NCBI GenBank assembly: GCA_043228905.1
Contig: JBHGNT010000647.1
Location: forward strand, 1 to 18,453
From: Azolla caroliniana
Lineage: Eukaryota > Plantae > Polypodiophyta
Length of the DNA stretch: 18,453 nt
Reading direction: 5' to 3'
Position 1 is the first letter of the stretch. Each line of letters starts with the position of its first letter. Both the position numbers and the translations under genes were made by a program. Shown piece by piece: positions 1 to 13,628 of the stretch. Below the pieces are notes generated by a model, which worked only from the letters and a program-made list of their open reading frames with translations, searched no databases and was not told where the DNA came from.

Positions 1-1285
1 AACGTGGAATACAAGGTTTTTCGCAAGGTGAATACTACTGAGGTCGTTGCAATAGATCGTCATCGGATCAGGCACCTCCACATGCAGATCCCGTAATAGC
101 CGTTTTAGCCAAATGACTTCGCACGTAGCGACAATCACCCCTCGATATTTGGCCTTCGTGCTTGATAGTGCGACTGTCGGTTGCTTCTTGCTGCTCCATG
201 CGATTGCCACAATTCCTAAGGAGAATGCGTACCTGTATGAGGATCTATGATCGTGGGCATTTCCGGCCCAATCGGCATCCGTGTAGCCAACTAACTATTC
301 GCCTTTGCCTGCCCGATACAGCAATGCCATGTCTTTCGTGCCGCTGACATACCGTAATATCCTTTGCGTGCACTGAAAGTGTTCGGTCGTGGGCTACGAC
401 ATAAAATGACTGATCATTCTGATCGGGAAGCTGAGATCCAACCGAGTAATCGTCAAGTAAATTAGGCTTCCGACAATTTGTCGAAATCGTGTCGGGTCGC
501 ACGCCTTTCCCGAATCTTGGCGAAGATTTACGTTTTGATCTAGAGGGGTCGTGATGGGCTTATAGTCTGCCATCCCGAACTTGAAGAGCATGTTCAACAC
601 GTAGTGATGCTGGCTGATTAATATGCCTTCTGGGGAACGGATCACTTCGATCCCAAGGAAGTAATGAAGGTCTCCAAGATCCTTCATTTCGAATAATGCC
701 GCGAGTTGAGATTTTACGCGGTTGATTTCATCTAGGTTGGCACTGGCAATGACTAAATCATCAACATACAATAGAAGATAGACCGGTCCATGTCGAGCTT
801 GCCGAACAAACAATGAAGAGTCCGATTTGGACGTCGTAAACCCCATTCTACACAACCGTTGCGTAATCTTCGCATTCCAAGCTTTTGGGGCTTGTTTAAG
901 TTTGTATAGCGCCTTCTTCAATCGGCACACAACCGAAGTGTTGTGTTCGGATAGAAATCCGGGGGGTTGTACCATGTACACTTGTTCCTCAAGATCACCT
1001 TGCAGGAACGCATTCTTTACATCCATCTGATGTAGATGCCACCCCTTCGTCGCTACTACGGCTAGCAAAACACGCATGGTAGTCATCTTTGCGACAGGCG
1101 TGAAGGTCTCATCGTAATCAATGCCGTGTTTCTGCGCATAGCCTTTCGCAACCAAACGGGCCTTATATTGGTTAACCGAGCTTTCGATGTTATATTTCAC
1201 CTTATACACCCATCTGCATCCGATCGTCTTTACACCCTTCGGTGCGTTAACTAGGTCCAAAGTCTCATTATTCGTTAAAGCACGT
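1..1285 (-). pseudogene. pol: Ty1/Copia pol fragment: reverse transcriptase (RVT_2 type) followed by degenerate RNase H
   Basis: ORF 394..1329 has Copia RT motifs YKARLVAKGYAQ, QMDVKNAFLQG, LYKLKQAPKAW and LLYVDD. Reading past the stop at 394 gives GYTDADWAG and, after a frameshift, WSSKKQPTVALSS and IYCNDLSSIHLAKNLVFH (RNase H). The ORF's first ~14 codons lie in the inserted LTR. Confidence 0.95.
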
Positions 1286-1810
1286 TGTCGTGTCGTTACG
1301 CACGTACGTGTAGAAAGGGGCGGGACCACGGGGGACTTGGACCGAGGAGCGAGAGAGAGAGACAGAGAGAGAGATTCACCGACACATAGTGTCAGGAATA
1401 GTACTAAAGCAAAGATGGAATTAGTACTAAGAAGAGCAGTACTATTAGTACTAAGAGGACGGGACTACGTAAGATTCCCGAGAGAGGAAGTGAGAAGAGG
1501 AGAGAGAGAGATAGCGACGATGAAAGAGAGAGAAAGATGATGACAACAGCTAATATATTATGTGAAAAGATAAGTACAAGCGGCTAAGAGGCTTAAGACT
1601 GGGGTTGAACCAATTTGGTTCAACATAATGCCTAGTGCCTTCTTTTATAGTGTTGTCAGGAGTAATCCGGAAACTTCTAGAATGTTCCAGAGAAATCTGG
1701 AATATACATTACTTTCTTATAATAAAACATAAATGAAAATAATATCCCATGAAGAGAGCTCGACCCATATACCATAAGGTCATGGGTTCGAGTCTTGCCA
1801 TATCATGACA
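1286..1810 (-). mobile_element. 3' LTR (525 bp) of a Ty3/Gypsy chromovirus inserted into the Copia RT
   Basis: On - it starts TGTCATG (1810) directly after a polypurine tract and ends CGACA (1286). TATA-like CTATAAAAG at 1642-1650. It interrupts the Copia RT at ..RALTNNET; candidate TSD CACGT 1281-1285 (partner not in window). Confidence 0.85.
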
Positions 1811-1823
1811 CTATCTCCCCCTT
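1811..1823 (-). other. Polypurine tract of the chromovirus
   Basis: AAGGGGGAGATAG on -, between the pol stop (1822-1824) and the LTR TG. Confidence 0.85.
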
Positions 1824-3116
1824 AACGATGACAAGTGGAACTAGTCGGCGCTGATTGCGGACCGGGTTTATCTGGATACTTTCGGTGGAAATCAACAAGC
1901 AGATCCTGAGCATTGGCAACATGCTCAACGGGTTCCCAAGTGCGTTCGCTCGGACTATAACCAACCCAATCGACCAAATAATAAAGTTTGTTGCGAATAA
2001 GTTTGGAATCGAGGATGGCAACAACTTCATACTCCGGGCCGACGTCCAACTCTAGGGGGGGTGGTGGTGGTGTAACACGATCAGGAATGGTGTTTTCTTT
2101 ATAAGGTCCAAGAAGAGAACAATGGAAAACCGGATTAACTTTACCCGTAATACAGAAAGGACCGAGTCGTCGATAATCCAACTTGTCGCATGGTCGACTA
2201 GTCTTGATGTGACTACGTAAGAGCCATACTCGATCTCCGATGGCAAAAGAGGAGGGAAGCTGATGACGATCCGCGTAAGTCTTCTGTGTTTGTTGAGCAT
2301 GACAAAGATGAGTCGAGAGATCTGTCTGGATCTTGCGTAGTCTCTCCAAATGATCCCCGGCACGAGGATTGGTAGGTAGCTCCGGGGTGTCGATCACCGA
2401 CCAACGAGAATGAGAACCGGTATAAGCGTAGAATGGGGAGACTCGAGTCGAGGAGTGAACAACATTATTATACACAAAATCCGCAAAGCGGAGAATCTCG
2501 GCCCAATTGTCCTATTGATAACTCAGGAAACACCGGAGATATTGCTCCAACATTTGGTTTGTTCGCTCTGCCTGCCCATCGGTCTGAGGATGGTAGTCGG
2601 AGGAGAGGTTGTAAGAGACCTTGAGCATCTTGAAGAGATCCTGCCAAATTTTGGAGACAAATTGCGGTCCTCGGTCACTGATGATACTGTCTGGGAGGCC
2701 ATGATGCCGAAATACCTCACGCATGACTAGGGTGGCGGTTTCCTCGCTAGTGATGGCCTTAGTACACGGAACAAAATGTGCCATCTTCGTATATCGATCG
2801 ACGACGGTTAATATAGCATCGAACCCCTGCGAGACCGGCAGATCTGTGATAAAATCAAGACAAATAGACTGCCACGGCTTACTTAGAATCGGTAAGGGTT
2901 CCAACAAGTCATATGGATGGTGTCGTGGCATCTTTGCTCGACAGCAAGCATCACAAGTCCGAATGTAGTTGTCGACAAAACGGCGCATGTGGGGCCACCA
3001 AAAAGATCGCTGCACTAGCTCCAATGTCTTAGTACTACCGAAATGTCCCACCGTATGGGTGTCGTGACAATGCTGGACGATTGGAAGGTGACAGGAGCAA
3101 TCGGGGACATATACGC
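1822..3116 (-). pseudogene. pol: Gypsy chromovirus (Tcn1-like) integrase with C-terminal chromodomain, 5'-truncated
   Basis: ORFs 2512..3165 and 1822..2475 are in frame, split by one TAG. Motifs: HHCC zinc finger (HD..GH..CDAC), DFITDLP, VVDRYTKMAHF, SDRGPQF, HPQTDGQAER, KLDYRRLGPF, and chromodomain EYEVVAILDS..YLVDWVGY..TWEP. Confidence 0.93.
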
Positions 3117-3712
3117 GCTTTGGAATCGGAGCTCGTATTTTTATCTTTCCGACGCGCCTCCTCATCTAGCAAGCTCAACTTTACTCTTGCTAGGGATAGT
3201 CGTTTTCCTTCCGGCCCGGCGTTGCCCAATGTGACAACCAACGTCTCCCAGCTATCCGGGAGGGAACCGAGCAGGAGCAGCGCTAGTACCTCATCCGCGA
3301 GAGGTACTTCCAATGAAGTTGCCTAGTGGATCAGCCCTTGGAAGGCATTCATGTGCTCCGCCATGCTGGAGTGATCTTGGTACCAGAGTCTTACTAGCTT
3401 CCGGAATACCGAAACCTGATTAACAACATTTTTGTTTTGAAACATTATGCCGATCTTCTCCCAGAGCTCATGAGCCTTGCTCTCTTCATTGAAGTTGTTG
3501 TACAAGCTCATGTCGATGAAGCACCGTATGTACGCCGTTGTCTTCATGTGCATCACCTCCCATATCGCGGCATCGATTTTGTCCGGTCTCTTGACCCCGA
3601 ACTGAACCGGAAACCAGAGGTCTTTAACCACGAGCATGTCCCTCATCTTCGACTTCCACACTGAATAGTTGGAGCCGGTGAGCTTGAACATGCCGCCAAA
3701 CGATTCATCCAT
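3117..3712 (-). pseudogene. gag: Ty1/Copia gag (Tnt1-like), 3'-truncated
   Basis: KLTGSNYSVWKSKMRDML..DLW, then LLLLGSLPDSWETLVVTL..LLDEEARRK (UBN2-type gag). ORFs 3323..3712 and 3035..3313 are in frame across one TAG. It begins just after the PBS. Confidence 0.92.
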
Positions 3713-3727
3713 TTTCTGTGTCGTTTT

Positions 3728-3739
3728 GCTCTGATACCA
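3728..3739 (-). other. Primer binding site, tRNA-iMet
   Basis: TGGTATCAGAGC on -, 2 nt after the LTR end (..CGTCA). Confidence 0.95.
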
Positions 3740-3741
3740 CT

Positions 3742-4472
3742 TGACGAGAACTCAACGCTCCTTATCCGCAACGCTCGGCCACAACCGAGCTTAGAATAAT
3801 ACACAGAAAAATGGGAAATAATAAACGACACAAAGAAGAGAAGAGTACACAGGAGGTTTACGTGGAAAACCCCAAACTAGGGAAAAAACCACGGCAGCTC
3901 ACAGGCTGCAAATTGTCACTATGTAAGAATGTACAACAGTGAGTTCACGGAGGCAACGACCTCGTGCTCACTATCTTTGCCACAGCGACCTGCGGCGGTT
4001 ACAACTGAGGCAGCGACCTCTATCTCTCTCTCTCTCTCTCTATGTACACTGTTACGCGCACTAATCTCTTGCAAAACAAGAATGACAACTACTACTAAAA
4101 GTTTGCCCTAAGTCATATTTATACTAATATGAATTTTCGGCTATTTACAAATATAGCCTCGATGGACTCTCAAAAACATAATTACGAATATGTCTCTTCA
4201 TCCGGTGAGCACTTCTCATCGGGCCTGCACCATCCGGCTCTACGTAGCCGGGTACTCCTCATCCGGTTCTCACCGGGCCTGCACCATCCGGCTCTCCGTA
4301 GCCGGGTACTCCTCATCCGGTTCTCACCGGGTCTGCACCATCCGGCTCTCCGTAACCAGGTACTCCTCATCCGGTTCTCACCGGGCCTGCACCATCCAGC
4401 TCTCCGTAGCCGGGTACTCCTCATCCGGTTCTCACCGGGTCTGCACCATCCGGAGGGACCTGTCTCCCAACA
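3742..4472 (-). mobile_element. 5' LTR (~731 bp) of the Copia element
   Basis: On - it starts TGTTGGG (4472) and ends CA (3742) next to the PBS. TATAAAT near 4117-4123; (CT)n tract ~4024-4041; candidate TSD GGTAG 4473-4477. Confidence 0.85.
4213..4453. repeat. 54-bp tandem repeat, ~4.5 copies, in the Copia LTR U3
   Basis: Unit TTCTCACCGGGCCTGCACCATCCGGCTCTCCGTAGCCGGGTACTCCTCATCCGG starts at 4213, 4267, 4321, 4375 and 4429 (partial). Confidence 0.95.
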
Positions 4473-4847
4473 GGTAGTGGAACCATTATCAACACACTAC
4501 ACAATCTAAGCAGCAATCTAAACATAATAGTTTTAACAATAGAAGACAAAGATCCATAATAACAACATGGACAGTCATGGCAACAATTGTAGGGCCATAT
4601 TATGTTAAGGTTAGCTTGGACCAAAATCAGCCTCAATTTAAACTAATTCATGTTTCTCCATAAATTTGGTAGTTAGCTATGCACGCGGTGAAACCAATGT
4701 CATAAATCTACTAACCAAGTATATAAAAATAAAATTGAAACATATAGAAGATTATAAAGAATAGAATTCACTAGGTAAAACCCAAAATCTGTATTAATAA
4801 TGTGAAATCCAAACAAATCGTCAGTGTCATTTTCTTCATAGAGTCTA

Positions 4848-7800
4848 TTACATAGCAATCAATTCATCAACGCCATTTTCTTCATCATCTTGTGTAGAAC
4901 TCTCTTCGGCTATACGTGCATTGGCTTCCCCTGTTAGCCGAGCCAACGAAATATCTTCTATAAGCTCATCATCAAGCTCTATTAGCTCCCCCGGTTCGCC
5001 GGCTAACGGAGGAATAGGCTCTCGTGAAGCAGGTTGAAACCATTCTGTATTAGCGAGGTTCTTTGCACCGACCTCCTCATCCTGGTCTAGGCACTCCCAC
5101 AAAGCCTTAATCCGCATATTAATAAATATAACCTGCTCCTCGTCCTTCTCCAATGCAACTATATTTCTAAAGAGCTTCAATGCACATGCAAACGTCGTTC
5201 CTGTGAAGTAACAAGAAGATTTAGTTGTCAAACAAAAAAGATTCGGTATTGGTTATCTCAAGATCGTTACCCTAGTTCGAGGAATACCTGTGCCAGAAAA
5301 GAGATCTAATATCCAGTCTCCTTCGATAGAAAACATCTCGATCAAGCGCATCATAAGTCGTTGAGGTTTTTGATATGGGTTGACAAGTCCCCGTTCTGTC
5401 TTGGTGACATGTCGCAATTTCCATGTCACTGCTAGATATACCAACAGATTTGAACCTCCCACTTCATTAGAATTCTCCTTGATTTTCTGTTTCTTAATTT
5501 CATCGAAGTAGCCAACCGTGATGTATTCAATGACATTAATGAACCGAAAAGTTGGCCCTCTATTTACATTGGTTTTTATCCTATAAAAAATATTACATCG
5601 AGTTAAGAATAGATTGAACAACCTTAAGAAATGCAATATAGTGAATGAGACCTATAAATAATCCTTACCATGCAAGGTTCTTGATGCCATGGCAACGAGA
5701 TCTCAAAGCTTGAGATACCGAGTACCCTTGGTCCATACTATGAAAGACAACTATTCGCCACAAGGATGCAGTCGTTAGCTCAACGAAATCCTTGACCATC
5801 TTCTCCAATTGTTTAAACCTAAACGGTTCATCGTCGTATCATGACCCAACCATTCGAAATCTGTAAGGAGTATCTACAATCATTAGCGTATATTCCTTCT
5901 TTGGCACTTTTTGGATCAAGTCAACGACATTGCCGCAAACCACATTGTAGTAAAGATCTCTCGTAATATCTTTTTTGTTGCTAAATTTTTTAAAGGAGCC
6001 ATCTTCCTCCATTTCGTACGCCTTGACTAAGCGAAGATCCTTTTCTTTTCTGGCTCGCTCGAGATGTGCAAGGAAGGATGTAGGGAAATCGTGTATATCC
6101 TTAACTTCTCCTTATTTCTTGCCACGACACGGTTTCTAATAGAAGCAATAGGACATCAGGTATTATTATACAAGCTCTACATATAATGAAAGTGTAATGA
6201 AAAACCACCAATACTAACCCAATGCTTGAATGCAATAAAATACTCTGATAATGCCTTATATGAAGACGTTAGAAGATAATCCTCGGTCACTTGTTCCCAA
6301 GTTATACATCCAAGTTGTTTCATCATAACTTCTTGGATCTTCATGTACACCTTATGACTGTAAAATTAGAAATCAAGATTAGAACTTTGAATTACACCAT
6401 ATAGACTACAATTTCAGTATTTGAAAGACTTACTTATTGAACTCAGTGACCATTTCTTCAAGGCTTAAATCTTTCGCCACAACCCTTGACAAAACAGACA
6501 CAAGAAGCTGCTCGTCCTTAATACTTTGCATCGCTATCCACAGAGACAGCTTCATGTCGTCAGCCGCTTCTTCAATTGTCAAGTCAATTTTCTTGGCGGC
6601 TTGTGACTTTAACTCTAGTTGAGGGTCAACCTTACATTTCTTTTGTCGTTGACCCTTTACCTCCTTATTCTCCCACATTGAGAAGATTTGATCCTGTAGG
6701 TCCCATACTTCTCCATCTCTAAAGGCCAGTTGAAACCAAGACTCATATTTTCGAAGACCATCGGACTTAACATTATCATCTACAACAATACCGACTTCAT
6801 GCAGACATTGACGTCGTAGACCTGGATGTAGCTTCACACCAAAATTTTGTTTCACGTCCAAATACTCATGGTGGAAGAACCGTATACGCTCAATCAACGA
6901 CATTTTCTGCCTATAGTCATTATCATTATTATGGTCCCATGCCAAAAGCTTGGCCTCTTCAGTTGTGAGCCCCACATAAATTTTGCACTCGGCATACTTG
7001 AAGAAGAAAGTCGTTGGATGTTCTCTCACAAGTTGCCGACGTGCCTCTGCCGAATGCGATCCACCAATGACAAAGTAATTATATTGATCATGCTTTCTAA
7101 TATCAAAATCTTCAATGGTTTCAGATTCTTCAGGATCTACCATAACAATAAAAGGCACCACAGTGGCATGAGGATTAATTTTCATTTTTTTCTTCAGATT
7201 TTGTACATGCATGTGGTGTGGCTCTCTAATCTCAAGTGGTCTTCGACCTGTTTTTTCATCAATAGGGGGCCGATGGATGTGTGTTATAGGCAAATTAAAC
7301 ATTTGCCTTTTCCTGACTAGTTTACACTGCATTAACTCTCTCCTTATCTTATTCTGCTTGGATGACAACACACCCGATGCCAGCTCAGCTCCTGGCGTCC
7401 CCTTAGTGTCCTCCTCTTCATTTTCACTTGTTGAATCAGAGTTCGACATTTTGGTTGTCTTCTTCTTTGGTGCTCTTGATTGTACTTTAGATACCCTTTT
7501 TGTGGCCTTCACTAGGGAGGGCACTTCATCTCTTAGAGTTACATGGCCTTGTATATAAGGCCTCAAGGTAACAATAAGGTTTTGTGAGCTTTCAAGATCT
7601 TTTTTGAACGCTTCGGGCCCACAAGATTCCTTTACTAGAAGATCTTCTAAAAGGAACACTTTACGTACCCCCTTGGAGCACTCTATCATTACCAGTATGT
7701 TGGCCGAATCTGCATCTTCGTAGTCAAATCGTAGAATACGGCCATACATAAATGGGGTTTCCTTTCCAAGCTGCCCCTCCCCCTTCTTCTTTGTTGTATA

Positions 7801-9107
7801 CAATACGACTTTTTTCTTTGAGTCGACATATTGCATACACCATTCCTTGTCCATTAGATCACGGTCAGGAAGGTCTTCACCTCCAGTTGCTGCTACAAGT
7901 TCCTTTTGGCCGACATCAATGTGTGGTTGAGATTTTCACTCCTCGTTGAAGAGAAGCTTTTTTCCTCTCTTGATGGACTCGGGAGCTACTAGGGTTTGTG
8001 TTTCGATTGGAGAACCCTGTATGCGAAGCTTTATTTTCTTCACAGGTCAGTCCGACAGGTCCTCAAACGACCTATTTAAGAAAGTACATGCGAAAACATA
8101 AGTTAGGCAGTCACGTAGATTAAGGTTGTATATTAAAATATAAATAAGTAGATGAAGAAATACACTAGCAGGCGATTAGTGGTGAACTATAAATATCAAT
8201 CATGCATTTAGAGTATATGGTAGTCCTATATTCAAATATCGTAATGAGTATACAACTTAGAAAATATATATCGTAATGAGTATACAAGGTTATATATTGT
8301 CTTGAAGGGCAGGTATGACTTATATTGATTCCATAACTACATTGTAGATAATTTGCATATGATAGACTTGAGATTGGTATCGTAAAGGCAATTTATGAGT
8401 TATTTTCTACTATTTTAGGCTATAGAAGGTCATAAAACACCTATAATTAAGGCCTGTTTTTTTTAAAAAGTAAGGGAAGTCGACATAAAAAAGACTGATT
8501 TTGACAGCCAGTTTGATAAAAAATACTAAATTGTTGCCCAAAAACACAAGATATCGAGCAAAACGCAAAAATAATCCTGGAACTCGACACACGTTATCAA
8601 GTTCCTGTTTTAAACACAAATATTCCACAGGAACTCGATACGCTGTATCGAGTTCCTGTTTAAAACGCAAAGAAAACATAGGAACTCGATACGGCATATC
8701 GAGTTCCTGTTTAAAACCTTAACTTTACACAGGAACTCGATACGCCGTATCGAGTTCCTGTGTGTTCTTTGCTTTTTAAATAGGAACTCGATACGGCGTA
8801 TCGAGTTCCTATTTAGAGTTAAGGTTTTAAACAAGAACTCGATACGCCATATCGAGTTCCTGTGTGTTCTTGTTTAAAAAGAAAAGAACACACAGGAACT
8901 CGATACGGCGTATCGAGTTCTTGTTTAAAACCTTAACTCTAAACAGGAACTCGATACGCTATATCGAGTTCCTATATAGAGTTTGTATTTTATACAAGAA
9001 CTCGATACGGCGTATCGAGTTCTTGAGTGACAAAACATATTTACAAAAATGTCCACAGTGTCAGAGGCCTACCTAGAGTCCTGGCGCTCGATTCTCTTTG
9101 AAGACAT
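4848..9107 (-). pseudogene. Six-exon gene: ParB/Srx-like domain fused to a beta-class N4-cytosine/N6-adenine DNA methyltransferase (~974 aa, four in-frame stops)
   Basis: Exons on -: 9107-9073, 8071-6434, 6357-6219, 6135-5669, 5580-5288, 5200-4848. All introns are GT..AG and phase-consistent (2925 nt). Spliced product: ParB-like PFIVMV..YFVIGGSHSAEARRQL..IYVGLTTEEAKLLA..HN (~7300-6880); VVCGNVVDLIQKVPKKEYTLMIVDTPY (motif IV, 5874-5863); AWIKTN..IEYITVGY; NPYQKPQRLMMRLIEMFS.EGDWILDLFSGTGTT..CALKLFRNIVALEKD (motifs X-I-II). Stops at 8049, 7938, 6114 and 5841. Exon 1 is the least certain. Confidence 0.85.
8578..9024. repeat. Array of nine 29-bp palindromes AGGAACTCGATACG-S-CGTATCGAGTTCCT with AT-rich 22-bp spacers (one 32 bp)
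   Basis: Copies start at 8578 (degenerate), 8629, 8680, 8731, 8782, 8833, 8894, 8945 and 8996. Confidence 0.97.
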
Positions 9108-9230
9108 GGTTGATCTTGTGGCAGTGGAGGCGGAGATCACGCTTTCGTGCTTCGTGCTCTGTGTGCTCTGTCGCTCTTTGTGCTCTTGTATGGTCTTGTG
9201 TACTCTTGTGAGTGAAATATGACGAGGTCT

Positions 9231-9244
9231 TCCTTTTTATAGGG
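9231..9244 (-). promoter_or_regulatory. Candidate TATA box of the ParB-MTase gene
   Basis: CCCTATAAAAAGG on -, ~130 bp upstream of the predicted ATG at 9107. Confidence 0.5.
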
Positions 9245-9423
9245 ATTGACCATAGTGGTTAAAGTAACCATAGTCACCCTAACCAAGGTTGGTAAGTTTG
9301 AGGTTAGTTAGTTGGTAATCATAGTCACATTAACTAGAGTAACTTATGATTGCATTAATGATTACAAAGTCATAACAACTTACAATGACTTTAAAGGTCA
9401 TGAAGGAGACAATGATAGAGGTT

Positions 9424-9607
9424 CATGAATGTACCAATGATTGATTACTAAAAGCAACATTTTTATGACTCTCAATTGTTGTGTATTAAAGATGTGGGCA
9501 TGAATTAACCAATGATTGATAAGTCTAATATTTACAATGGTGAGCATTAATGAACCAATGACTGAGAGGTTCTATATCAAATATGGGTGCCATTAATTAG
9601 CCAATGA
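9424..9607 (+). promoter_or_regulatory. Four repeated CAT(G/T)AATnnnCCAATGA elements (CCAAT-box-like) between the divergent genes
   Basis: CCAATGA at 9434, 9509, 9555 and 9601, each preceded by CATGAAT or CATTAAT plus 3 nt. Confidence 0.5.
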
Positions 9608-9911
9608 TTTTAACTTTAATCCAACATATTTATGGGTTGGTAATGATTGGATTTATATTATACTTGATTTAACTTCATATAGACCTAGTTTAAATAATTA
9701 TTGATATTTTAAATACAATTACTATATTAAAAATAATATTTCTATGTATTGTATTAATATAATATTAAATAATATAGACATTCTATTGAGGGAGCTTTTG
9801 TTTAGAGAGAAGTTTATGTTTAGAGAGGAGTATATGTTTAGAGAGGAGCTTATTAGTTTTTTGGCTTAGCCTAAGCACATAACTTATAGAGCCCTATCTA
9901 GACCTTAAGCC

Positions 9912-12699
9912 ATGAGTGAAGATTCACCGTTCTCGATTGAAGAATATTGTCTGTCATCAGACTCATCGTTTTCTACTGAAGAGTATTGTTTGTCGACAGA
10001 CTCACCATATTCTATTGAAGAATATTGTCTGTCGACAGACTCACCATATTCTATCGAAGAATATTGTCTGATCTCATCTTCACCTACAGGGAATGTAAAT
10101 AATGACACAAGTGAAGAGTTCTCTATTGAAGAATACGATATTAATAAAGATACGGAGAATGAAGGTAGTGCCAATGAAACATCGAATAACATTGGCAATG
10201 GTCACAACAAAGAATTAGATTGTAACAAGGTTACACCAACCTCTATGCAAGAAGAGAAATCTGGAAGCCCTATGCATATTAGAAGAATCCCACGAAGAAT
10301 TTGTCTAGCTAGATTTAGCTTGGTGACATCAGATAAACAGATTGGATTTGATGTCAAAAAAATATGTTGTGCCCGTGGTTGTATGTCTATGATTGGAAAA
10401 TCAAAGTTGCGAGAATTAAGGTGATACTATTTTTCGATGACTGGTGATGAGCAAGAAACTTACCTCGGGTCACATATGCAACTAGTATCTGACAAATGTA
10501 CGGGGATCAAAGTATCATTCGAGTATTATATCTTCCATGCGCAACAGATATGTAGAGTTGCATTCAAAATTGCATTATGTGTTAGTAACATGTGACTACA
10601 TAGAGTACAACAACGTCTACTTAGTAGGGATCAGATGCTCAATTGTAAAGAGGTTCCAAGTATGAAAGGTGCAATTGGAAGACATGCTATTGGTTGGATG
10701 AAAAGTTACTTTCAGTTAAATTGTGAAGTAATGCCTACTACAGGTAGAATGCACCTTTCTGATAATTATACACGTCGGGAAGTTTATGATGTTTATCGAT
10801 CTGATATGGTGGGCTCACGTAATAAGTCTATCACCTATAGCCAATTCACAAGATTATGGAGAGCTCGGTGTTTTCAAATGTTATCATTCCACGTAAAGTA
10901 CGCATGGGGTATTGCTCCATTTGTGCAAATCTTAAAAGTTTGGCTAAAGGTGCAAAGACATCAATGGAAAGGATATGAGTAAGAAGTCACTACAAGAGCA
11001 TCGTGAGGCACAATCGTTAGAACGAAAGAAGGCGATGCATCATAGAGAGAAGTTTTTGAAGTGGCCCGAACAATACATGTGCTTAATGATAGATGGCATG
11101 GACTAGAAGAAGACGTGCTTGCCGCATATGCGGAGGCTCCCCAAAGATGTCAATGATGAGTGCCTTGTTCAAATGCACTTGGTGGGATGCTTGGCTTATA
11201 ATAGGTCTGTTGGACCTCACGTCTTCATTACATACCCCAATGTTCACAATGACCCTAACCTAACAGTTACAGTGATTCACCGAGTTTTGATGTCTTGGGG
11301 CCAACCTTTCCCCCCTGTTCTATACATTCAATTGGACAATACTGCTAGAGAGAACAAAAATTCAACTGTGTTTGGCTATCTAAGTATGTTGGTCAACCAA
11401 GGATTGTTTAGGAAAGTGAAAGTCAATTTTCATTTGGTTGGCCACACACATGACAATATAGATCAAATGTTTAGTACATTCTCTAGACAGTTGTCTTGGC
11501 ATGATGGTTTCACATTACCTAAACTATTTGATGTCATTTGTGATGTATATACACCACGCCCAAAAGTGTTACACTTGAAGGAGGTATATGACTTTAAGAG
11601 ATATATATCAGATGGGGGTGTTGGGAATGTTAAAGTGCTTGCCCAGTTAAACAATATAAGCTTCAATCACATTTTTATGATAAAGAAAAATGAAATAAGT
11701 GGTTCTACACTTTTGTATGCTAAACAATATTCATCTTCTACAACATGGGAACCTAAAGGTGGTTGCCAGTTATTACTTTGTATGCCGAGTACAATTGTCC
11801 ATGGAGCTAAGCAAATGCCAATTCAAAAGAAAGGACAGTTGCAGAGTGACTTGGTATCGGAACAACAACGGTTATGGCTCCAAGCCTTAGAAGAAAAAAT
11901 AAAGCATATTGAGGCCGCCAAGAAATATGCCGCACAACAAGACACGTCATGGTGGGATGTATTTTTATAGTGATTAGAAAGGAATTATAGACAATTGTGT
12001 ATTTGGCAATAATTGGAATTTGGAAATGCCATTCACATGGTCGCTGCAACATGATCGTGTAAATAGAACTCCGGAGCAACCAGCAAATGCGATTAATGAC
12101 AGCTTGGTCCATCCACAACAAAGAGACATTTATGTGGGACCAAGGATGACCAAAGCAGCCGAAGCTAGATGGCAAGGCAATTTGCAAGAGCTCACCGCGG
12201 GGATGTTGATTGCAACGCCGGCTGATGAGAACTCACATGGCCACCAATTTTGGGTTGGTAAAATGTAGAAGTGCTAATGCATGAAATAGAAAACACGATC
12301 AAGTCTATAAATGTTCATTGGTACAACACTAGAAGTGCAAATGCTTTTACAGGTAAGTATACATTGGAGATGATTGAATGCCCAACAACAAGGGGAGGTA
12401 GGAAGAGGAAGCGAAACATTCGTAACACCTCGACCCTTGATATCTCTGATGTGGATATCATCGTGTATGACTTCACCCTTACAAAAGCCGGACGATTAAG
12501 GAAGTCAACAATAGATATAATAAAAGAAAAATTACCAAGTCTACAAGGTGGCTCGAGTCAAAGGCAAACGAGATCTGCTACATATAATCTAGAGTCAAAC
12601 CATTTGGTTTATGACGAAGATAATGCACTGATTGGTACATCTGAGGATGACGAGGAGGAATCGTCATTGTATATTAGTTATAGTAGTGATTCTCTGTAA
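9912..12699 (+). pseudogene. DDE-type transposase, Sola-like/DUF7869-type, with stops and frameshifts
   Basis: Joining ORFs 9912, 10635, 11119, 12020 and 12271 gives CCARGC, CRVAFKIALCVS, RMGYCSICANL (after a frameshift at ~10870), MCLMIDGMD*KKTCLP (D at 11092), LYIQLDNTARENKN (D at 11335) and FHLVGHTHDNIDQMFS (11452/11461). The superfamily call is from motif recall, not a search. Confidence 0.75.
9921..10076 (+). repeat. 39-bp coding tandem repeat x4 (DSPYSIEEYCLST) at the transposase N-terminus
   Basis: Seen in ORF 9912..10424; a partial fifth copy (EFSIEEY) lies at ~10116. Confidence 0.9.
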
Positions 12700-13020
12700 A
12701 GGAGTGATCATGAATGTATATTTGGCTATTAAGTGTAACTACATTCCGCTTGTAACAAATCGAGTAATATAAAAGCATGTGTTTTGAGTTCTTATGATTT
12801 CTAAAAAATCGTTTCTTATAAAATAACATTGGTTGTAAAGTTTGTGATATAAATTGAGAATGTAACTTTTTGAAATTCGTCTTTTTTTAGTTACTTCTAA
12901 ATCACGAAAATAGTGGATTTTTAACCTTTTTCATAGTATGTCTGAACATGTATGATACTGGTATCAATGTGTTTTGTAAAATCATTGAAAAAGCCCTAAA
13001 ATCAACCAAGTTTTCCCTTA

Positions 13021-13628
13021 TCCTTCCATTTATGCGCAATCCTTCCACTTCTGAATGCGAACGTGTTTATACCACTTAGGTCGAAGGTGTGTTAGTTCTT
13101 CTTCTTCTTACTTTAGAGTTCTTTGAGATCTTCTTCTTCGTGTCTGTTTAGGGTTTTAGCCCGGTGAAGAGCTTGGATGTTCTGTGGGGACTTACTTCTG
13201 CTCGGCCTCCTGTGCAAGACCCCGCTCGGCGTGACAAGCCCGAGAGCTCCCCGACGGCGGCTTAGCAGTAGACTGCTGTTGTGACCTAGGCTACCTTAGT
13301 CCGGCTCGGAGCCGGAGTTATCTTTCTCTTGTACATACATATATATATATATAGTGAAGTTTTGTGCATCTGTGTCTTTGTCGATGTCTTTGGAGTTCCT
13401 TCTTTCTGGTTTCTGTACATAGGATGTGTGTGCCTAGTAAGTGTTGCGTGCACGCCCTTTTCCCCCCTCCCATATGGTTGCTTCTTGTACGTGTCCGGAA
13501 ACGCTCTGGTTGGTGTCTTGGCCGGTCGCGGGAAGAAGTGAGGCTTGACCTTCCATACCCCATCTCTCTCTCGTCCGAGACCCCCGTGGTCCCGCCCCTT
13601 CTACATGCACGTACGTCACAACGCGACA
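13021..13628 (+). mobile_element. Gypsy-type LTR (3' LTR or solo; 5' boundary uncertain) related to the LTR at 17380-17923
   Basis: Ends ..CCGAGACCCCCGTGGTCCCGCCCCTT..CGCGACA (13628). Over ~300 bp it is colinear with the reverse complement of 17380-17700 (TATCTTT..CTTGT..ATATAT..TTTGTGCAT). No PBS follows. Confidence 0.75.

What the first reader, a model, noticed from the sequence alone, without database searches (positions are those of the whole stretch)
4848..6135. Intron-split beta-class methyltransferase hidden from the ORF track, with catalytic variant DTPY
Three exons reconstruct the complete order motif IV (LMIVDTPY) - WIK - NPYQKP - DLFSGTGTT - RNIVALEKD. An 87-nt intron (5287-5201) splits the SAM-binding FxGxG motif, and an 88-nt intron (5668-5581) splits the conserved Trp codon. 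Spliceosomal introns argue for long eukaryotic residence and against bacterial contamination. DTPY departs from canonical (D/N/S)PPY. Whether it makes 4mC or 6mA cannot be told from sequence.
Basis: partly seen in the sequence, partly recalled or inferred. Interest (0 to 1): 0.8.

Follow-up and report, generated by a model that had tools for sequence, protein, structure and literature searches.

The report
Broken plant transposon ParB-methyltransferase gene
This is a broken copy of an intron-containing, bacterial-type DNA methyltransferase gene carried by an abundant plant jumping element; its odd catalytic motif is a one-off mutation, while intact relatives likely use the enzyme to mark the element's own DNA, a design already described in seaweeds.

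Summary
The introns and the beta-class methyltransferase are real; the 'DTPY variant' is not a family trait. Genome-wide, the motif-IV pattern reads DIPY at 336 places and DTPY at 1, this copy. The three exons are the 3' end of a gene of at least five exons that fuses a ParB-like domain to the methyltransferase. It lies head-to-head with a DUF7869 (Sola1-like) transposase in a ~9-kb cut-and-paste element with 36-bp inverted ends, 4-bp target duplications and a palindrome array. Of 32 other copies, 17 are open across the aligned 918 codons. A sister family at 60% identity keeps all four introns and DIPY. Fusion relatives occur in Chara, Riccia, Adiantum and Ginkgo. The same design is published for Ectocarpus Sola1-1_Ec32, and this scan has 217 notes matching 'methyltransferase' in this genome, the 8 shown all on this kind of element. 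Activity, 6mA versus 4mC, and RNA splicing are untested. Verdict: land-plant member of a known, uncharacterised kind.

The parts
4478..13067 (.). Remnant of a ~9-kb Sola1-like cut-and-paste transposon; the left ~670 bp with the left inverted repeat are missing from this contig
   Evidence: Shared boundaries with 40 fetched loci; full copies 7.9-9.4 kb; left arm absent from window
4848..5200 (-). Last exon: end of motif I, RNxxALEKD, acidic tail, stop
5201..5287 (-). Intron, 87 nt, GT..AG, at the end of FSGTG
   Evidence: GT kept in 33 of 33 rows and AG in 32 of 33; same position in sister family; relatives P0008, P0014, P0021 are contiguous across it
5288..5580 (-). Exon with WxK, NPYQKP and DLFSG
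   Evidence: Pfam PF01555 E=7.5e-10
5581..5668 (-). Intron, 88 nt, GT..AG, splitting a Trp codon
   Evidence: GT and AG in 33 of 33 rows; same position in sister family
5669..6135 (-). Exon with motif IV; two premature stops in this copy (6114-6112, 5841-5839)
5863..5874 (-). Motif IV codons: DTPY here, DIPY in the family
   Evidence: 1 versus 336 genome-wide; 1 versus 32 aligned
6136..6218 (-).
   Evidence: same position in sister family
6219..6357 (-). 139-nt linker exon
   Evidence: 139 nt in 32 of 33 rows and 8 of 9 sister-family rows
6358..6433 (-). Intron, 76 nt, GT..AG, joining the ParB-like exon to the methyltransferase part
6434..8071 (-). Large exon with the predicted ParB/Srx-fold domain (IGGSH motif); two further stops in this copy (8049-8047, 7938-7936); start codon not established
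   Evidence: fold inferred from the model of relative P0021
8581..9021 (.). Array of 9 copies of a 23-bp palindrome, mostly 51 bp apart, between the two divergent genes; candidate parS-like binding sites (inferred)
9909..12699 (+). DUF7869 transposase, broken here by 4 stops and 4 frame changes; 927 codons in open copies
   Evidence: Pfam PF25273 E=4.6e-50
13032..13067 (.). Right terminal inverted repeat, 36 bp
3741..4472 (-). LTR of a Copia-like element that interrupts the transposon's left arm (not part of the transposon)
   Evidence: TG..CA ends, primer-binding site at 3731-3739 and gag-like frame 3323-3751 read from sequence; family name recalled, not tested

Best explanation
This is a dead copy of a conserved cargo gene of a Sola1-like plant DNA transposon, encoding a predicted ParB-fold domain fused to a beta-class amino-methyltransferase with motif DIPY, and in intact elements the protein likely binds the element's own palindrome array and writes N6-methyladenine on nearby element DNA. 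Shown: gene anatomy in the DNA, element ends, copy number, selection, the DTPY change and stops being private to this copy. Inferred: splicing at RNA level, the ParB fold (from a relative's model), palindrome binding, catalysis, adenine as target, and a benefit to the element (keeping the divergent promoter region usable or timing transposition). The DTPY change has no functional meaning.
For: Element: 36-bp inverted ends, exact 4-bp target duplication in 18 of 20 copies, one 5-bp and one with a mismatch; 635 exact matches of the 29-bp end against 0 for the control. Gene open over the 918 aligned codons in 17 of 32 other copies; both genes open in 5 of 40 fetched loci. Sister family: same head-to-head layout, ends starting AACAC, 4-bp duplications in 10 of 10 loci where both ends were found, four introns at identical positions whose sequences are no more alike than shuffles, DIPY in 33 of 35 loci (30 distinct places). 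Methyltransferase domain between families: 60% identity, synonymous sites saturated (pS 0.81), dN 0.33. Model of relative P0021 (pLDDT 81) matches CcrM Z 22.4, M.BceJIV 22.1, M.MboIIA 20.9, then M.PvuII 19.2 and rotifer N4CMT 18.7, and its N-terminal part matches PadC Z 9.6 (rmsd 3.2, 99 aligned), Pnob8 ParB 8.9, KorB 8.8. Palindromes sit between the genes in all six loci examined and change symmetrically between families, keeping AA..CGAT..N..ATCG..TT. Asp-first motif is typical of N6A enzymes and Ser-first of N4C (PMC8885841 passages; PMC7544214 passages). Self-marking was proposed for the same design in algae.
Against: No activity or binding data. DIPY lacks the first Pro of (D/N/S)PP(Y/F/W), and some relatives have DFPC, DIPH or DAL. 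Transitions at CG (11.5 per 1000 site-copies) and CHG (14.0) exceed those at A/T (1.55) in 27 close copies, and palindrome CGs are not spared (16.8 versus 5.2), so the host likely methylates these elements with 5mC and any anti-silencing is incomplete. Streptophytes are reported to lack abundant 6mA, and transposon DAM enzymes gave no 6mA in E. coli (bioRxiv 10.64898/2026.05.21.726589). The ParB-like motif is GGSH without the Arg that phage fusions have (GGHQR) and that ParB-fold proteins need for nucleotide binding. The N6_N4 domain has switched between 6mA and 4mC repeatedly, and structural Z differences of 2-4 come from a relative's model.
Confidence: 0.55

Rival explanations
1. The fusion is a catalytically weak or dead methyltransferase fold kept as a DNA-binding or transposition accessory protein that docks on the palindromes without writing a mark.
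For: First Pro of motif IV is replaced across plant relatives, with DFPC and DIPH among them; host-type CG/CHG decay across the element; negative heterologous assay for other transposon adenine methyltransferases.
Against: Asp, Pro, Tyr, PYQKP and DLFSGxG are kept between families with saturated synonymous sites and in Chara, Riccia and Adiantum relatives; a phage gene annotated as DNA methyltransferase also has DVPY (1 of 6 read, activity untested); distant relatives P0134 and P0139 have DPPY.
Confidence: 0.25
2. The enzyme is active but would write N4-methylcytosine, for example on the CG-rich palindromes, and so compete with host 5mC.
For: Palindrome has four CG sites; M.PvuII and rotifer N4CMT are also strong fold matches (Z 19.2, 18.7); a land plant 4mC system exists in Marchantia (bioRxiv 10.1101/2021.02.12.428880 passages).
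Against: Known eukaryotic 4mC writers have SPPY; every motif read here starts with Asp, or Asn in 3 loci; palindrome CGs decay like methylated cytosines.
Confidence: 0.15
3. One reading: a resident host gene with a new catalytic variant DTPY.
For: DTPY is in the sequence.
Against: DTPY 1 versus DIPY 336; four premature stops in the gene and a broken transposase beside it; the gene lies inside a repeat with hundreds of copies.
Confidence: 0.02

Closest known systems
Sola1-1_Ec32 of Ectocarpus and its 1104-aa accessory protein (PMC12477816; main-text passages and supplement rows read)
   Same: ParB-like domain plus N4C/N6A methyltransferase, on the strand opposite the transposase; 4-bp target duplication; ends begin AAC (AACCG there, AACAC here); its transposase's best blastp hit is listed as Sola1-1_PPa_tp; self-marking proposed.
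   Different: Brown alga versus land plant; 21.5 kb with 282-bp imperfect ends versus about 9 kb with 36-bp ends; hundreds of young, often open copies here. Its sequence was not compared with this one, so homology of the cargo is not tested.
Plavaka accessory genes PAG2 and PAG3 of red algae (bioRxiv 10.1101/2025.02.11.637652; passages read; supplements closed)
   Same: PF01555 methylase and ParB-like domain carried by DNA transposons, with tandem inverted repeats next to the ParB gene proposed as its binding sites.
   Different: There ParB is fused to a 2OG oxygenase and the methylase to SET, in separate genes of an EnSpm element; here ParB-like and methylase are one protein.
Beta-class N6-adenine methyltransferases CcrM, M.BceJIV, M.MboIIA, M1.HpyAVI, M.RsrI (PDB)
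   Same: Motif order IV - TRD - I and fold (Z 19-23 for relative P0021).
   Different: Canonical DPPY-type motif, no ParB-like domain, no introns, 15-22% identity.
Phage ParB-fold + N6N4-methyltransferase fusions (bioRxiv 10.1101/2025.10.10.680097 passages; phage genes read)
   Same: Same two domains in the same order; 4 of 6 phage genes read are ~415-aa proteins with a ParB-type N-terminus and DPPY.
   Different: Only the methyltransferase part matched (23-29% identity); phage proteins keep the Arg motif; descent from them is plausible but no tree was built.
DAM-carrying DIRS and LTR retrotransposons (bioRxiv 10.64898/2026.05.21.726589; parts 1-4 of 5 read)
   Same: Transposon-borne prokaryote-like adenine methyltransferase thought to favour the element.
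   Different: Dam-type NPP motif, retroelements, DAM-LTRs reported absent from streptophytes; no ParB domain.
Marchantia MpDN4MT1 and rotifer N4CMT (passages read)
   Same: Beta-class amino-methyltransferases of prokaryotic origin in eukaryotic genomes.
   Different: Host genes with SPPY and proven 4mC activity; not transposon cargo; not compared by sequence here.

Membership tests
Beta-class amino-methyltransferase (PF01555) | Pfam match above the curated cut-off | tested here: met
   39.6 bits versus 26.7 on one exon; 45.6 bits reading through intron B
Beta-class amino-methyltransferase (PF01555) | Motif order IV - TRD - I | tested here: met
   definition in PMC7544214 passage
Beta-class amino-methyltransferase (PF01555) | Motif IV (D/N/S)-P-P-(Y/F/W) | tested here: inconclusive
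   Three of four positions match (DIPY); second position is I, F, A, V or L in plant relatives and V in one phage gene; effect on catalysis unknown
Beta-class amino-methyltransferase (PF01555) | SAM-binding FxGxG | tested here: met
   DLFSGTG after splicing, kept in sister families
Beta-class amino-methyltransferase (PF01555) | Methyl transfer to adenine N6 or cytosine N4 | not testable with these tools
   needs an assay
Sola1 DNA transposons | Terminal inverted repeats and 4-bp target duplication | tested here: met
   18 of 20 exact; 4-bp duplication listed for Sola1-1_Ec32 and Sola2 (PMC3627910 passage)
Sola1 DNA transposons | Transposase that groups with reference Sola1 transposases | not tested
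   No reference Sola sequence was held; DUF7869 match shown, its link to Sola is recalled and echoed in earlier scan notes; the defining paper was not held
ParB/Srx fold | ParB-CTPase fold | tested here: met
   Relative P0021 model: PadC Z 9.6, Pnob8 ParB 8.9, KorB 8.8, sulfiredoxin 7.6; transferred by homology (E=2e-80); no Pfam hit
ParB/Srx fold | Arg-containing Box II motif for nucleotide binding | tested here: not met
   GGSH/GGNH/GGGH across the alignment versus GGHQR in phage fusions; so ParB-like, not a canonical ParB CTPase
ParB/Srx fold | Specific binding to a parS-like palindrome | not testable with these tools
   Array present and symmetric changes between families; binding untested
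Eukaryotic 4mC writers (N4CMT, MpDN4MT1) | SPPY motif | tested here: not met
   No Ser-first motif among those read

The most novel reading that the evidence does not exclude
A streptophyte-wide lineage of DNA transposons, present from Chara to Ginkgo and recently active in this genome, carries a working phage-type ParB-methyltransferase that loads at its own palindrome array and writes 6mA locally, giving land plants a real, transposon-restricted source of genomic 6mA and a self-marking system distinct from VANDAL.
Probability: 0.3. Interest if true: 0.75.

Novelty: new member of a known kind. Interest (0 to 1): 0.4.

Why it matters
The specific claim (a new catalytic motif) does not hold. 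What remains is useful: the ParB-methyltransferase accessory protein proposed for algal transposons has never been assayed in the papers read here, and this genome holds hundreds of young copies with natural open genes and a defined candidate target, so the idea of a transposon that binds and methylates itself becomes directly testable. If active on adenine it would bear on the disputed existence and source of 6mA in land plants.

Tried and rejected
RNA check of junctions: no RNA holder listed, so no reads were laid; this is no evidence either way. Single-sequence fold of the ParB-like region failed (pLDDT 34). Pfam found nothing for the ParB-like exon; the ESM Atlas gave DUF3723 and unnamed eukaryotic clusters at 0.95-0.96, a lead not followed. 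A profile of the whole alignment found no PDB sequence. The motif-IV exon alone found no longer homologue, and the third homologue search returned only short fragments of close relatives, so the prokaryotic donor was not identified. Sequence look-up in earlier findings was blank. Bacterial contamination rejected: introns, hundreds of chromosomal copies, plant relatives. Host lineage not determined; earlier notes say 'likely fern', which I did not test. A 5' start exon seen in most family copies was not found in this window and is unverified. Paper searches listed no paper describing this element in land plants or a DIPY methyltransferase; three papers sought by recalled id were not held, the journal version of the Marchantia study and Iyer 2011 were not read, and bioRxiv supplements were closed, so a prior mention is not excluded.

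Full report
Observation. Pfam N6_N4_Mtase matches the middle exon at E=7.5e-10 and reads through the second intron at 45.6 bits. A profile of six phage enzymes scores the joined product 37.2 bits, against 20.5, -0.2 and 17.8 with one or both introns left in; a profile of ten relatives from other sources gives 228.5 against 211.4, 74.5 and 116.8. Junctions shifted by 3 nt tie, so exact bases rest on GT/AG. The joined frame holds two premature stops, at 6114-6112 and 5841-5839, that the finding does not mention.

DTPY. The middle exon has 1132 first-look candidates in the 523-Mb genome, of which 150 were scored and all matched. I fetched 40 of the top matches; 32 covered the gene in one piece and were aligned with the window, 8 were left out because of insertions or deletions. 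Motif IV is DIPY in all 32 and DTPY only in the window; both stops are also private. Genome-wide, the same 23-nt pattern gives 336 matches with the Ile codon and 1 with the Thr codon, which is this window. In more distant subfamilies DIPY was read in 33 of 35 loci (30 distinct places; one NIPY, one not read) and in 13 of 20 further loci (two NIPY, five not read). The window differs from the majority residue of open copies at 22 of 240 positions in this domain. DTPY is decay.

The whole gene. Two more GT..AG introns (6433-6358, 6218-6136) join the methyltransferase in frame to the upstream 501-codon frame. Over these five exons 17 of 32 other copies have no premature stop. The large exon likely extends to an acceptor at 8071, where the window has two more stops; the start codon is not established. 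A sister family at 60% identity in the methyltransferase domain has introns at the same four positions, GT..AG in 8 or 9 of 9 copies each, with intron sequences no more alike than shuffles, saturated synonymous sites (pS 0.81) and dN 0.33. That is strong indirect support for splicing and for selection on the protein. No RNA holder was listed, so direct support is lacking.

The element. The gene lies in a repeat spanning window 4478-13067. Full copies are 7.9-9.4 kb with 36-bp inverted ends and an exact 4-bp target duplication in 18 of 20; the 29-bp end occurs 635 times exactly. Head-to-head with the gene is a 927-codon DUF7869 transposase, open in 12 of 40 loci; both genes are open in 5 of 40. 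Closest copies are 99.7% identical, the window about 95% to its nearest. The sister family has 33-bp ends that also start AACAC and 4-bp duplications in the 10 loci where both ends were found. In the window the transposase is broken and an LTR (3741-4472) interrupts the left arm. Between the genes lie nine copies of a 23-bp palindrome; arrays were seen in all six loci examined, with symmetric changes between families.

Relatives and fold. The ParB-like region finds 399 proteins at E<=0.001 among 1.84 billion. Of 20 proteins looked up (19 from this search, P0008), named ones come from Chara braunii, Riccia sorocarpa, Adiantum nelumboides and Ginkgo biloba; 6 of the 24 from this search that were scanned, plus P0008, carry PF01555. 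Their motif IV is D-x-P-Y with x = F, A, V, L, I or P, with some DFPC and DIPH, and they run through both junctions without the intron stretch. Whether they sit in transposons was not checked. A model of unnamed relative P0021 (pLDDT 81) matches CcrM, M.BceJIV and M.MboIIA at Z 22.4-20.9, M.PvuII at 19.2 and rotifer N4CMT at 18.7, and, in its N-terminal part, PadC, Pnob8 ParB and KorB at Z 9.6-8.8 (searches agree for the methyltransferase). The ParB-like motif is GG(S/N/G)H without the Arg of phage fusions.

Mechanism. Most likely the fusion protein binds the palindrome array as a dimer through its ParB-like half and methylates adenine in nearby element DNA; each of these steps is inferred. 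Asp-first motifs are typical of 6mA writers and Ser-first of 4mC writers, though the domain has switched repeatedly (PMC8885841 passages; PMC7544214 passages). Against a strong anti-silencing effect, 27 close copies (six more diverged rows, the window among them, left out) show transitions at CG and CHG seven to nine times those at A/T, the signature expected of host 5mC, and palindrome CGs are not spared (units are not independent). A preprint on Dam-type retrotransposon enzymes reports no activity in E. coli and little 6mA in streptophytes. Hence the binder-only rival at 0.25 and 4mC at 0.15.

What is known. [quoted passage not shown] The Bostrychia preprint describes PF01555 and ParB accessory genes with adjacent inverted-repeat arrays. 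I read both after earlier scan notes pointed to them; the Ectocarpus paper had been in my first listing. Iyer et al. (PMC4738411; passages and section 8 read) do not describe this clade in what I read. Nine searches listed no paper on the land-plant elements; unread papers and closed supplements may bear on this. The scan itself holds 217 notes matching 'methyltransferase' in this genome, and the 8 shown describe this kind of element.

Verdict. Real feature, wrong headline. A dead copy of a land-plant member of a described but unassayed class of transposon accessory proteins. Interest 0.4; the testable system is the open family, not this copy or its DTPY.

Noticed in passing
window 8581-9021; L154 5201-6272; L147 5284-5647; L152 5027-5174: Palindrome arrays differ by family with symmetric changes and different spacing (about 51 bp here, about 46 in L154, about 31-41 in L147); L107 of the sister family shows a single strong unit in this scan.
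   Followed up: partly
window 3035-4472, minus strand: Copia-like LTR, primer-binding site and gag fragment inserted in the transposon's left arm; the LTR holds a 54-bp tandem repeat (4213-4453).
   Followed up: partly
window 394-3165: Nested Copia-like reverse transcriptase and Gypsy-like integrase/chromodomain fragments on the minus strand (names from recalled motifs).
   Followed up: no
window 9424-9609 and 9791-9853: Short direct repeats (46-bp spacing with CCAAT-like words; 18-bp units) upstream of the transposase, possibly its promoter region.
   Followed up: no
window 11978-12699: The transposase has a long C-terminal extension after DUF7869 with a WVGK..VHWY segment that looks like a chromatin-reader fold (recalled resemblance); no Pfam hit.
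   Followed up: no
P0134, P0139 (unnamed ENA and JGI contigs): Distant ParB-like fusions with canonical DPPY whose frames end just after the WxK motif, close to where intron A lies here.
   Followed up: no
P0093 (Logan): A relative of the ParB-like region carries a sterile alpha motif domain.
   Followed up: no
L111 1-1650 and 2018-4525: A family-1 transposase fragment lies next to a sister-family element, suggesting nesting of the two families.
   Followed up: no
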